A stretch of 64,000 nucleotides of DNA. Origin: Cyanobacteria bacterium auto_48_18. Lineage in GTDB: Bacteria; Cyanobacteriota; Vampirovibrionia; Obscuribacterales; Obscuribacteraceae. Shown here piece by piece: positions 18,001 to 21,000 of this stretch (position 1 is the stretch's first letter; the number at the start of each line of letters is the position of its first letter). A program made the position numbers. Where the stretch lies: NCBI GenBank assembly GCA_036170915.1, contig JAVHQC010000022.1:32001-96000 (forward strand). Reading direction: 5' to 3'.

Positions 18001-21000
18001 TCTTCACTGCAGCGGTAGCAATTGCTGTTTCTGGCCAGAGTGAGTTGACTGCGATTTTCTTAGATTTCAGTTCTGCAGCCATTCCTAGAGTGCACATACT
18101 CATGCCGTATTTTGCCATGGTGTAAGCGACGTGCGGAGCAAACCAGCGCTTTGACATATTGAGTGGCGGAGAAAGGTTGAGAATGTGCGCGTTAGCAGCT
18201 TTCTCTAAATGTGGAATAGCTAGTTTGGAACATAAAAACGTACCGCGGGCGTTGACTTGATTCATCAAATCGTAGCGTTTCATTTCGGTCTCTAATGTGC
18301 CTGTCAGGCTAATGGCGCTGGCATTGTTGACGAGAATATCTATGCCGCCAAAGTGCGACACTGTTTGAGCGATGGCAGCTTTTATTTGTTCTTCATCACG
18401 CACATCACATTTGAGTGCCAAAGCTTTTCCGCCTGCCGCCTCAATTTCAGCCGCCGCCGAATAAATTGTGCCTGGCAATTTTTCGTGCTCTTCTACGGTT
18501 TTTGCCGCAATGGAAATACTGGCACCGTCTTGCGCAGCACGCAGAGCAATTGCCAGACCAATACCCCGGGAGGCACCGGTGATAAAAAGTACTTTTCCCT
18601 GAAGGCTCATTTTTATTCCTAACTAATTTTAGTCGTCTAGATTATGCAGGCCGATTAAACTGGGCATTGACGGTCTGCCGCGCAGTATGCGCGAAACGCG
18701 CTGCACCAATTGATAAGTGGTGGGCTCAGCGTCGCCTTTGGGAAGCCTACCATTTTTTGCCAGCCAGGTGGCTCGACCCACGGCACCCTCAACCTGTTGG
18801 GGAGTCATGCCCAAGCCCTGCAGTTCAAGCTTTCCGGCAGGATTGTTGTAGGTGGTGACAAAGTCATTTAATTTGGTCACTGTTTCTACGGGCAACGGTT
18901 TTTTTGCGGCTGCTTCATAGAGATATTGACTGAGATTTTCATAACCGCGCCTGAGCCCTGCGCGAGGAATCAAATCGAGTTGACTGGTCGCTGGTCGCAA
19001 ACCATCACCAAGGTCGATATTCTTTACTGCCACTTTCCCTGGGGTTTTGTCAGCAATAAAATTGAGGGCATGGTTGTCCCATTCGCCCATAACTAAACGC
19101 TTAGCCCAGGCTTCTTGATAGCTTTCAAAAAGTGGTTTATTTTGCACAAACTCGTCAATTACTTTTTTCGGCGGCGGTTTGAAGAGTGAGCGTTGCCCGC
19201 CAGGATTCACAACTTCAAGCAAATTCTTGCCTTGCAATTCTTGTACGTAACCATGAACAGGTTTTCCGTTAACTTCAACGGTACGCGCCACTGAAACAGG
19301 CATTGAATTTTCAAGTTTGATTTTTCCGGCCAGGCCGTAGCCGGCTATTTCAGATTGCATACGTACGGCAAATGGTTCGGTGCCTGTATGCGGGCGGAAA
19401 AGCACAGGAATTTCGCCTTCAGCTGTTTTGATGGTGCCTTTTAATGTGGGGGTTTGCAAGTTGGCTACTTCGCGACCGGGTGTAAACTCGCCATCGCGCA
19501 AAGCTGCCTGCCGTGCGTCGGCAATTTTACCTAATTGAAATGGAGTGCTGCGGGCTTCAGCAACGGCATCAGGACCGTCTTTAACGTTCAGTCGCATGTG
19601 GCGCTCTGACTGCAGACCGCCCACTCGACCCGCAGCTGTAGTCACTATTCCGGAAGCGAGACCACGTTGTAAAATTAGCGGCAGATTGAATTGCTCGTCT
19701 GATTGCCACTGGCGCACAAATTCATTGCCGGTACCAGATGCGGTGCCCATGGTGCCGGCTGCGAGAGTGTGCTTGAGGGGTGTGTCAAAACGAATCGCAC
19801 CGCGGCTCTTCATGTAAGCACGACCCCAGAGGACGTCGGCGGCACCAAAAGTTAAAGCGTCTACAGCAAGATTGCCAGGATTGAAAGCAGTCTTGAGTGT
19901 AGTCGAGAGGCCATTAGTCAGGCTGTATTCACCGGTTTTAGTGACGTAATTTTCGCGGGTCAGGCCTGCTTCGGCAGTGCGACCGATTATGCCCAGCTGC
20001 ACACCGCTCATTGCCGGCGACAGGGCTCGTTTTTCCATCAGAGCAAAACTGCCTTTCAGAGCTGCGGCTTTGCCCAAGCCGAGCGTGGCATCGGTGAGCT
20101 GGTGGGCTGCAGTGTCGCCCACTTTGGCTTGATCGGCTGCGTAAGATAGAGCCAGCCCGCCCAGTGCCAGTTTGCCTTTCATAAACAGCGGAGCAGTTTT
20201 GATGAATGCCCTGCTGTAAGTGCTGATTTCGTCTTCGATGCCCGCGGCTTTGTCGCCAGAAGTGAACGTGCGCACCGTTGGCTCTATTGCCGCGCGCACT
20301 GCTACATCAAGATATGACCGCTCTAGAGCCGTGGGCTCGGCGGCTTTCGCTTGATTTTCGCTATGTTCGAATTTAGGCATGCGGGGGCTATACCAGAGCT
20401 AAAAGCTACGCCAGTATTATGCCCTCGAAAACCCAAAAACCAAACGTATGACAGCCTTCGAGAGTGCTTCAGCGAATTTCAGGCTGACACTAACGATGTC
20501 TCTCTGCAAAGCCTAAGAAATTTTACAACTCATAAGTTGTAATTTTTTACAACCTTTCGGTTGTAAAAATCCCTAGGGTGAAGATAAGACACTCTCAGTC
20601 AAAGAGCGCCGCCATTTGATTCACGCACTGCTTTGTAAAACTGACTACGCCTCAGCTGATTGACAAAACTTTTGCGTAGTTCCGTCGCACTCTCATCTTG
20701 CGCGTGAAAGCGCTCCATTAACTGCCTGGCTTTATCTGCACGACCACTGAAATAAAGCTGCACTAGAGTGTGATAGAGAGGCTCCCAAGTTTTTTCACTA
20801 CTTTTTACTTTCAATTCGTCTATTAATTGGTCATCTAGTTTGACTGCATTGAGCTTCTTTATAGCCGAGAGATCGACCACAAATTTATTGCGGCGCCAAA
20901 CCATTGGCACTTTTGGAAATTCATAAACTCCAGATCGCCAGTAGCGAAAAATTGCGTCTTCGAATATCAGAATTGGTTGTGATGGCCGGTTTGAGCGCAT

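What a model noticed while it worked through the whole genome (the two positions that open the first line are those of the whole stretch)
18629..20380. Polymorphic effector family with a glycine-rich helical N-terminal domain and swapped C-terminal enzymes (PI-kinase fold [...]
About two dozen large proteins without signal peptides start with a polar leader and a Gly/Ala-rich hydrophobic helical domain followed by unrelated catalytic domains. One subfamily (g02025, 2867, 3456, 3806, 4359) shares an uncatalogued 230-aa domain; a second joins such a domain to a full CCA-adding enzyme (g02953, C29:125757) or another domain (g03396). Cargo such as a PI3/PI4-kinase fold points to delivered effectors, probably against eukaryotic cells.
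Evidence so far: Family found by calls 24-27; alignment A1 finds 450 clusters at 50% identity, 259 at E<=1e-30. Of the best 150, none has a hydrophobic signal stretch and their C-terminal parts fall into 29 clusters. Pfam on 55 of the 150: CCA/PolyA polymerase 2, zeta toxin 2, further HD 2, LRR 2, FHA 2, Phage_30_3 1, RHS 1, most none. The g02025 model (pLDDT 86) matches PI3K/VPS34/PI4KII, best E 7e-6. The g02953 fusion is kept in 20 clusters. Patatin, trypsin, 5'-nucleotidase and GGDEF cargo on other members. In G000 a motif SGTARTT..CCCA lies next to 7 such or leader-bearing genes and 2 pilin-like genes of the C33 T4SS among 13 intergenic sites. Paper searches list nothing on it.
(Added by a program. 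Inside this text positions count along the whole contig: contig position 32,001 is position 1 of the stretch shown here. "Call 12" and the like, gene names such as g00115 and contig names such as C1 are that model's own, and its searches are not shown. The text may have been shortened before it was handed on; [...] marks where a part breaks off. The agent that wrote the report below was given it as the finding of a first reader that could run no searches.)

Follow-up and report, generated by a model that had tools for sequence, protein, structure and literature searches.

The report
Swappable-enzyme proteins tied to secretion machine
A little-known group of non-photosynthetic relatives of cyanobacteria carries a family of proteins with one shared front end and many different enzymes behind it, and many of these genes share a control switch with an injection machine that nearly all members of the group possess, which suggests these bacteria inject enzymes into cells they touch.

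Summary
The gene at 18629-20380 (583 aa) joins an acidic leader, an uncatalogued all-helical 240-aa domain (no fold match) and a kinase of the PI4KII/Fam20/CtkA/MavQ group with intact catalytic residues. The helical domain is confined to Obscuribacterales (87 of 107 genomes; 0 of 201 other genomes of the class) and carries dozens of unrelated C-terminal enzymes. New here: two chromosomal VirB4 type IV secretion systems are core to the order (106 of 107). A palindromic upstream site is shared by the VirD4-bearing system (18 of 26 operon heads) and many family genes, and it is recovered when learned from either side. The window gene itself lacks the site, but 3 of 3 orthologues in the sister family have it. 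No immunity genes were found. The eukaryotic-target claim is weak: the cargo (zincin, truncated kinase, zeta-like, CCA, Nudix, NADAR; GGDEF and SLT on related leader genes) matches the phage and conjugative 'polyvalent' pool, the kinase fold also occurs in prokaryotic viruses, and the genome has one ankyrin match and no F-box match. Best reading: T4SS-delivered effectors, target open. Secretion is untested.

The parts
18629..20380 (-).
   Evidence: 50 full-length relatives at 37-68% identity; model pLDDT 87.3
20318..20380 (-). Polar, disordered leader (residues 1-21), no signal peptide
   Evidence: pLDDT<50 for residues 1-19; family leaders net charge -1.7 in the first 25 aa vs +0.7 for G000 proteins over 450 aa; coordinates
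19589..20317 (-). Shared Gly/Ala-rich all-helical domain (residues 22-264, about nine helices, moderately hydrophobic)
   Evidence: pLDDT 90.0 alone; best structural Z 6.3, best Foldseek E 0.52; no Pfam, NCBIfam or PDB-sequence match
18710..19534 (-). Kinase domain of the PI4KII/Fam20/AFK/CtkA/MavQ group (residues 283-557)
   Evidence: VIA Z 15.8 to PI4KII-alpha, rmsd 4.0, 241 aligned; Foldseek
19013..19078 (-). Catalytic loop D435-N436-H437-x-x-N440 and metal-binding D456
   Evidence: invariant in 43 of 43 aligned orthologues, as are R329 and E344; coordinates
20416..20445 (-). Putative alternative-sigma promoter GTTTGG-N15-GGGCATAAT, kept in orthologues; the T4SS-regulon site is absent here (score 3.9)
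   Evidence: not enriched genome-wide; likeness to SigB/SigF consensus is recalled, from no call
20515..20572 (.). Double-hairpin dispersed repeat (REP-like), unrelated to the family
   Evidence: 47 half-site matches in G000, 43 of them intergenic
17783..18610 (-). Short-chain dehydrogenase directly downstream; not an immunity gene
   Evidence: Pfam adh_short E 3e-37; other genes take this place in other orthologues
43338..43703 (-). Small leader-bearing gene with a weak copy of the T4SS-regulon site at 43790 (score 11.0)

Best explanation
The family is a set of effectors of the order-specific, VirD4-bearing type IV secretion system (G000 C33:172-196 kb), made together with the machine and passed into a contacted cell. 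Shown: shared uncatalogued N-domain, exchange of cargo, intact kinase active site, no signal peptide, no immunity gene, core chromosomal T4SS of the same taxonomic range, shared upstream site. Inferred: one dimeric activator binds the site (centred near -42 from a sigma70-type -10 box, judged by eye); the acidic leader or the helical domain is the export signal; the Gly/Ala helices then settle into a membrane of the target and hold the enzyme there; the window protein phosphorylates a membrane-near substrate (protein or phosphoinositide). Target, if delivered: bacterial prey or host about 50%, microbial eukaryote about 40%, kin about 10%.
For: Range: domain in 87 of 107 order genomes and 0 of 201 other genomes of the class; C33-type VirB4 in 60 of 60 order genomes and 1 of 161 outside, weakly. 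Machine: VirB4, VirD4, PrgI/TraE-like, DUF2225, a 2063-aa membrane protein and four tandem 142-aa pilin-like genes; the one relaxase-like protein seen (C17) has no homologue in the T4SS loci held; no FHIPEP, sheath or VipB match in G000, 86% complete. Site: a matrix trained on non-G000 family upstreams scores >=10.5 upstream of 18 of 26 DUF2225 genes heading the VirB4 operon; 6 of the 8 misses are in lineages where, in the loci long enough to show it (G000, G036, G073), that gene lies inside an operon whose head has the site. 5 of 20 genes of the G000 C33 locus score >=10 vs 46 of 4054 genome-wide. A motif found de novo from 24 T4SS upstreams alone is the same and scores >=12 before 12 of 45 non-kinase members vs 30 of 4051 background genes. 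3 of 3 sister-family orthologues of the window gene carry it at -74 to -81. In G050 a member lies inside the T4SS locus. Cargo swaps: PI4K-like 3, zincin 9, truncated kinase 8 changes on a 210-row tree. The kinase also occurs in giant ORFs of up to 18,420 aa. The CCA fusion is surplus to two housekeeping tRNA nucleotidyltransferase homologues. Precedent: regulatory elements mark Legionella effectors (PMC2701608, passages).
Against: No expression, secretion or activity data. The window gene and its orthologues outside the sister family lack the site: 0 of 33 score >=12 and 1 of 33 scores >=10, that one from the sister family; 2 other G000 paralogues (C29, C37) lack it too. 20 of 107 genomes have no match to the domain yet all 20 keep a VirB4 match, so presence and absence within the order do not link them. 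A shared regulator shows co-expression, not transport; other genes also carry the site. There is no strong C-terminal signal: the share with net charge >=+3 is 19% in both family and background. Genomes are kin, so p-values overstate; three of the five C33 hits are near-identical copies. The ATPases resemble ICE-type conjugation proteins, so the machine could move DNA.
Confidence: 0.58

Rival explanations
1. First reader's narrower case (a sub-case of the best explanation): the targets are eukaryotic microbes and the window protein is a phosphoinositide kinase that remodels host membranes, as MavQ, LepB and PikA do.
For: Best structural match is PI4KII-alpha (Z 15.8). The H-x-x-N...D triad is as in PikA (PMC12607708, passages). 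No immunity genes, even for a zeta-like member. No inositol-phosphate synthase match in G000. LRR, TPR and patatin cargo. The sister-order predator Vampirovibrio is proposed to use a T4SS on Chlorella (PMC4451040, passages).
Against: Fam20, AFK, CtkA, CotH and HipA share the fold. The loop lacks the Arg of the DRH motif and reads DxHAxNF, as recalled for HipA; one member hits HipA_C at E 0.0018 and one hits PI3_PI4_kinase at E 0.0006, of 30. The top viral match is a halovirus protein, and phage MuF, ADP-ribosyltransferase and Nudix fusions appear. G000 has 1 ankyrin match and no F-box match, though that search rang in no control. GGDEF, SLT and zeta-like cargo act on bacterial targets. The C33-type VirB4 was not found in the sampled genomes of other orders bar one weak hit.
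Confidence: 0.24
2. Cell-retained enzymes: the helical domain anchors signalling and housekeeping enzymes to the producer's own membrane, granules or a contact structure, and is co-regulated with the T4SS only as part of one life stage.
For: The window fusion is stable across the order (48-row clade, 99 support); N and kinase parts are equally conserved (47% and 45%); it has its own promoter type; no immunity genes; several cargos are not toxic (CCA, NADAR, Nudix).
Against: Rapid gain, loss and tandem expansion (1-14 matches per genome; arrays in G053 and G054); 53 unrelated cargo groups; conflict-type cargo; the CCA enzyme is surplus; one member sits inside the T4SS locus.
Confidence: 0.2
3. 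Self-translocating toxins: the proteins leave by another route (the C1-type T4SS, vesicles or lysis) and the Gly-rich domain carries the enzyme across the target membrane, like a pre-toxin or entry domain.
For: Marginally hydrophobic Gly-rich helices; weak structural neighbours are mostly membrane proteins; ESM feature lead to a PT-TG cluster at 0.85; a second core VirB4 system exists.
Against: The PT-TG model finds nothing in G000 at E<=1; no clear fold match; no signal peptide, and no transporter or chaperone gene as a constant neighbour; the site lies in only 3 of 14 C1-type loci at score >=15.
Confidence: 0.12
4. Escort proteins of a domesticated conjugation system that exchanges chromosomal DNA between kin, i.e. 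chromosomal polyvalent proteins.
For: ATPases are closest to ICE-type models; the cargo pool matches polyvalent proteins (PMC5512222); kin delivery would explain the lack of immunity genes.
Against: No homologue of the one relaxase-like protein in the T4SS loci held (single query); none of the DNA-acting domains typical of polyvalent proteins (methylase-helicase, primase, ArdC) among 106 scanned members; genes are scattered on the chromosome.
Confidence: 0.08

Closest known systems
Polyvalent proteins and MuF-type effectors of phages and conjugative elements (Iyer et al. 2017, PMC5512222; seen: abstract, passages, sections 8 and 25)
   Same: Cargo pool: HExxH zincin with a downstream Glu (motif in 44 of 44); kinase lacking its C-terminal subdomain with a conserved Gln (18 of 25 parsed rows end within 60 aa of the DFG-like motif, one of them a false alignment); zeta-like kinase, Pol-beta nucleotidyltransferase, GGDEF, lysozyme-type; delivery by T4SS; giant multi-domain members.
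   Different: Chromosomal and inherited in a cellular lineage; one constant N-domain, usually with one or two cargos; no DNA-acting domains seen; no mobile element around them. The paper's alignments (File S2) were not seen, so the kinase match rests on described features only.
Polymorphic toxin systems (LXG, Rhs, CDI, PT-TG proteins; PMC13483458, passages)
   Same: Constant N-terminal part, variable C-terminal enzymes, tandem arrays, Gly-rich helical pre-cargo region.
   Different: No downstream immunity gene, no orphan cassettes seen, no near-identical N-domains with different cargo, no PT-TG match, T4SS instead of T5/T6/T7.
T4SS effector repertoires with a shared regulon or shared translocation domain (Legionella Icm/Dot PmrA/CpxR regulons, PMC2701608 passages; Bartonella BID and Xanthomonas XVIPCD, recalled)
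   Same: Scattered effector genes sharing an upstream element with machine genes; one conserved domain on many cargos.
   Different: The shared domain is N-terminal; the ATPases are ICE-like; no eukaryote-like domain expansion in G000; the machine is core to a free-living order.
Bacterial PI/atypical kinases MavQ, LepB, PikA, CtkA, HipA, and eukaryotic PI4KII/Fam20
   Same: Fold (Z 8-16) and H-x-x-N...D triad.
   Different: 8-16% identity, no sequence match; Arg replaces the beta-3 Lys; no DRH Arg; substrate unknown.
Vampirovibrio chlorellavorus predation (PMC4451040, passages)
   Same: Same class; T4SS proposed to deliver enzymes into prey.
   Different: Its VirB4 is described as T-type with relaxase-bearing plasmids; the domain and the C33-type VirB4 were not found in sampled genomes of other orders (which sample holds Vampirovibrio is not known).

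Membership tests
Polymorphic toxin system | Conserved N-terminal region with variable C-terminal enzymatic domains | tested here: met
   53 strict cargo groups among 147 proteins; repeated gains on the tree
Polymorphic toxin system | Cognate immunity gene directly downstream | tested here: not met
   Of 67 members with downstream DNA, 32 are followed by an opposite-strand gene; same-strand neighbours are housekeeping genes, other large leader proteins or short doubtful ORFs (9 edge rows left out)
Polymorphic toxin system | Strain-level cassette exchange (near-identical N-part, different toxin; orphan cassettes) | tested here: not met
   Unrelated C-termini in 0 of 124 pairs at >=70% N identity, 3 of 90 at 60-69%, 83 of 191 at 50-59%; none seen in arrays
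PT-TG pre-toxin domain (PF14449) | Match to the family profile | tested here: not met
   No match in G000 at E<=1, control rang in 5 genomes; none in 149 Pfam-scanned members; ESM lead 0.85 only
Polyvalent proteins | Cargo classes: zincin MPTase, C-lobe-less kinase, zeta, Pol-beta NTase, GGDEF, lysozyme | tested here: met
   against PMC5512222 sections 8, 10 (passage), 25; by motif and Pfam, not by the paper's profiles
Polyvalent proteins | Encoded by a phage or conjugative element and delivered with its DNA | tested here: not met
   Neighbours are chromosomal housekeeping genes; orthologues inherited across the order
T4SS effector | Complete T4SS with coupling protein in the same genomes | tested here: met
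   outer-membrane components not assigned by any profile
T4SS effector | Co-regulation with machine genes | tested here: met
   Family level. Not met for the window gene itself (score 3.9)
T4SS effector | C-terminal translocation signal | tested here: inconclusive
   Last 25 aa mean +1.06 vs +0.35, but the same share of strongly basic tails
T4SS effector | VirB4/VirD4-dependent transfer into another cell | not testable with these tools
   needs culture or enrichment
PI3/PI4 kinase (PF00454) | Fold and catalytic D, H, N, D | tested here: met
PI3/PI4 kinase (PF00454) | Profile match above cut-off | tested here: not met
   No match in G000 at E<=1; 1 of 30 domain copies at E 0.0006
PI3/PI4 kinase (PF00454) | Phosphorylates phosphoinositides | not testable with these tools
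   assay needed

The most novel reading that the evidence does not exclude
Obscuribacterales, thought of as ordinary heterotrophs, are as an order contact-dependent predators or ectoparasites. They domesticated two ICE-type T4SS into core protein injectors, run them from one activator regulon, and load them through a new N-terminal helical fold (plus at least two analogous leader-domain families) with enzymes captured from the phage/conjugative polyvalent pool, reprogramming rather than lysing the target and needing no immunity genes.
Probability: 0.35. Interest if true: 0.9.

Novelty: new variant of a known kind. Interest (0 to 1): 0.74.

Why it matters
[quoted passage not shown] Two VirB4 systems kept at roughly 70-99% identity across the order, a shared upstream element and an order-specific cargo-carrying domain give a concrete, testable case for a contact-dependent lifestyle and a way to list the effectors of any genome in the order. 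The domain folds with confidence yet matches no solved structure; if it is an N-terminal T4SS signal or membrane-entry module, it is a new one. The 452 clusters also hold many enzymes without a family name (68 of 106 scanned have no Pfam hit).

Tried and rejected
Complex prediction of VirD4 core + DUF2225 + N-domain: no answer, score 0.00; it says nothing either way. No structural match for the N-domain in VIA-wide or Foldseek; no listed pore-forming or translocation domain, which does not exclude one. Profile searches of PDB sequences with the N-domain, kinase, zincin and truncated-kinase alignments found nothing significant; PHROGs gave only an unnamed family in 4 of 55. TrbI/VirB10-like hits (105 of 107) are weak, and the best one in G000 is a stand-alone gene, so they were not used. 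Presence/absence of domain against T4SS within the order is uninformative because the T4SS is universal. The second promoter type was not enriched: 14 sense vs 13 antisense, 9 vs 4 at the top threshold, and not kept at C1-type loci beyond three lineages. The count 28 of 62 at score >=13 includes the 26 training sites and is not used as evidence. Weak TLC (ATP/ADP carrier) hits in 41 of 107, none in G000, were not taken as a sign of intracellular life. Homology between the three leader-domain families was not detected. Word-indexed searches with alignments reached few relatives. Earlier findings of the scan: four look-ups returned nothing.
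Full report
Observation. The window (G000:C22:32001-96000) holds a 583-aa ORF at 18629-20380 on the minus strand. 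Fifty full-length relatives at 37-68% identity were found; three are named Candidatus Obscuribacterales by their source. The organism is therefore taken to be of that order. Residues 22-264 are shared with four other G000 proteins whose C-terminal parts are unrelated to this one's. No Pfam, NCBIfam or PDB-sequence family fits the protein.

The kinase. A model from 43 of the 51 sequences (near-copies and fragments left out) has pLDDT 87.3. Residues 283-557 match PI4KII-alpha best (Z 15.8, rmsd 4.0, 241 aligned), then Fam20 (13.8), actin-fragmin kinase (11.0), CtkA (10.9), MavQ (10.0), CotH (9.7) and HipA (8.2); Foldseek ranks VPS34 and PI4KII first. R329, E344, D435, N436, H437, N440 and D456 are invariant, so the enzyme is probably active. 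The loop lacks the Arg of the DRH motif (motif recalled). The substrate cannot be read from the fold. Language-model neighbours at 0.95-0.96 include phage and spirochaete clusters and one cluster with PF00454 on 38% of members. The best viral match is a halovirus protein, and phage MuF, ADP-ribosyltransferase and Nudix fusions follow. The domain is found in 61 of 107 order genomes, also in ORFs of 4,000-18,420 aa, one with at least six copies.

The shared domain. Folded alone from 55 sequences it reaches pLDDT 90.0 with nine helices and has no structural match: best Z 6.3, best Foldseek E 0.52. Its helices are 27-38% Gly/Ala/Ser, but only 1 of 55 sequences has a classic transmembrane window. 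Many members carry an extra coiled hairpin before it; the window protein does not. Leaders are acidic: -1.7 against +0.7 in the first 25 residues, 142 members against 1083 G000 proteins. 0 of 150 have a signal-like stretch. The domain is in 87 of 107 order genomes, 28 of 39 high-quality ones, with 1-14 matches each, and in 0 of 201 sampled genomes of other families of the class. The representative library holds 452 clusters.

Cargo and swapping. Pfam was run on 106 of the 150 listed proteins: 38 have a hit at E<=0.01 and 68 none. Hits include CCA enzyme 3, zeta-like 4, HD 5, NADAR-like 3, PGDYG 6, TPR 5, LRR 2, FHA 2, and one each of Nudix, dual-specificity phosphatase, RHS, patatin and GH15 (the last two just under cut-off). 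The large unnamed groups are an HExxH zincin (44 rows), a kinase that ends soon after its DFG-like motif (31 rows) and the PI4K-like kinase (50 rows). On a FastTree of 210 N-domains (12 of 222 left out as partial) these need 9, 8 and 3 changes; 48 of the 50 PI4K-like rows form one clade that includes the sister family, whose row is a long branch. Unrelated C-termini occur in 83 of 191 pairs at 50-59% N identity, 3 of 90 at 60-69% and 0 of 124 above that. Swapping is real but slow. No immunity gene follows: of 67 members, 32 are followed by an opposite-strand gene and the others mostly by housekeeping genes or further large leader proteins; a zeta-like member has none either. Of 17 further leader genes scanned, 5 gave trypsin, SLT, PHP, GGDEF or patatin and 12 nothing.

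The export route. G000 has no match to FHIPEP, phage sheath or VipB (86% complete) but has two VirB4 loci, on C1 and C33, each with a roughly 2000-aa membrane protein, DUF2225 and a small PrgI-like gene. The C33 locus adds VirD4 and four tandem 142-aa pilin-like genes ('pilin-like' and 'VirB6-like' are my labels from size and position, no profile supports them). Each VirB4 query matches 106 of 107 order genomes, full-length orthologues at about 70-99% identity; the C33 type matches 60 of 60 order genomes and 1 of 161 others, weakly. In G050 a 1531-aa member lies directly before the DUF2225-VirB4-VirD4 operon, one gene apart.

The shared site. Trained on non-G000 family upstreams, the matrix picks out two held-out G000 paralogues (23.5 and 19.9), other leader genes, and 5 of 20 genes of the C33 locus against 46 of 4054 overall. 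It scores >=10.5 before 18 of 26 DUF2225 genes from 25 genomes. Eight C33-type loci hold 22 sites in 104 kb, against 0.29 per 10 kb in G000. Learned de novo from 24 T4SS upstreams alone, the same motif emerges and marks 12 of 45 non-kinase members against 30 of 4051 background genes. By eye the site overlaps a -35 box with a -10 box 17 bases on, the geometry of a class II activator (recalled). Against: the window gene scores 3.9; 0 of 33 kinase fusions reach 12 with the second matrix; the C29 and C37 paralogues lack it. For: all three sister-family orthologues, each the only member in its genome, have it at -74 to -81. The simplest reading is that the window lineage moved to another promoter (GTTTGG-N15-GGGCAT), whose regulon I could not define.

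Target. For eukaryotes: best fold match, no immunity genes, no inositol-phosphate synthase match, LRR/TPR/patatin cargo, and the alga-eating relative (PMC4451040, passages). For bacteria: the cargo matches the polyvalent-protein pool, which lists zincin, C-lobe-less kinase, zeta kinase, Pol-beta nucleotidyltransferase, GGDEF and lysozyme and is delivered into bacteria by T4SS or phage (PMC5512222; abstract, passages, sections 8 and 25; its supplementary alignments were not seen and bear on this match); the kinase fold occurs in prokaryotic viruses; G000 has one ankyrin match and no F-box match. I put bacteria slightly ahead and leave it open.

Literature. Ten searches of the held library listed no paper on this family, this site or these T4SS; six of them named the order, and the only paper joining it with T4SS terms in a relevant way was the Vampirovibrio genome paper. 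Subscription journals are mostly outside the library. PMC13483458, PMC12607708, PMC2701608 and PMC6340189 were seen as passages only.

Verdict. A real, order-specific modular family with an unmatched fold, tied by two-way motif evidence to a core T4SS. It works like a delivered effector set and is not a member of the classical toxin-immunity systems. Delivery, target and substrate are untested, and the link is weakest for the window gene itself. New variant of a known kind; interest 0.74.

Noticed in passing
window 20515-20572 and about 30 other places in G000: Dispersed intergenic double-hairpin repeat (TACAAC-N6-GTTGTA twice, within AAGAAATTT...AAAATTTCTT ends), often between convergent genes; REP/BIME-like or a tiny MITE; 47 half-site matches.
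   Followed up: partly
G000 C33:172085-196388 and C1:924-18165 (L069-L071): Two chromosomal VirB4 systems core to the whole order, with giant membrane proteins, DUF2225 and, on C33, VirD4 and four near-identical 142-aa genes in tandem; worth a study of their own.
   Followed up: partly
G068:C1 about 120700-175900 (L111-L114); G045:C93; G053:C27, C42: Giant ORFs (18,420, 9,257, 7,394, about 4,000 aa); the largest has an acidic leader and at least six copies of the PI4K-like domain.
   Followed up: partly
G000 C29:125757, C32:41698; C33:281756, C22:227178, C20:145989, C36:68776: At least two further families of leader + Gly-rich helical N-domains, not detectably homologous to the window's; some carry the same upstream site.
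   Followed up: partly
L043:1942-11832 (G061), L044:2432-12449 (G058): Family gene paired with a downstream 900-aa leader protein, the pair duplicated in tandem.
   Followed up: no
window 12051-13310 (-): 419-aa acidic-leader protein with a weak EF-hand hit; proteins of similar look lie in the C33 T4SS locus and on C10 and C29.
   Followed up: no
window 7253 (+): Strong copy of the regulon site (16.9) in the gap between a short minus-strand gene and the sensor-kinase-like gene at 7516; target gene unclear.
   Followed up: no
G000 C15:117903-118802: An alternative sigma factor lies inside the type IV pilus cluster (PilB/PilT/PilC/PilD-like by sequence look); a candidate reader of the window gene's promoter.
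   Followed up: no
G000 C6:215399 and C29:291671: Two tRNA nucleotidyltransferase homologues (495 and 876 aa) that look like the split CC- and A-adding pair of cyanobacteria (labels recalled).
   Followed up: no
G025:C306 and C113 (L008, L119): Two copies of the window gene, 90-92% identical to it in the kinase, each followed by the dehydrogenase; duplication or strain mixture.
   Followed up: no
L179, L180 and 39 other order genomes: Weak TLC/NTT-like transporter matches in 41 of 107 genomes, none in the window's genus.
   Followed up: no
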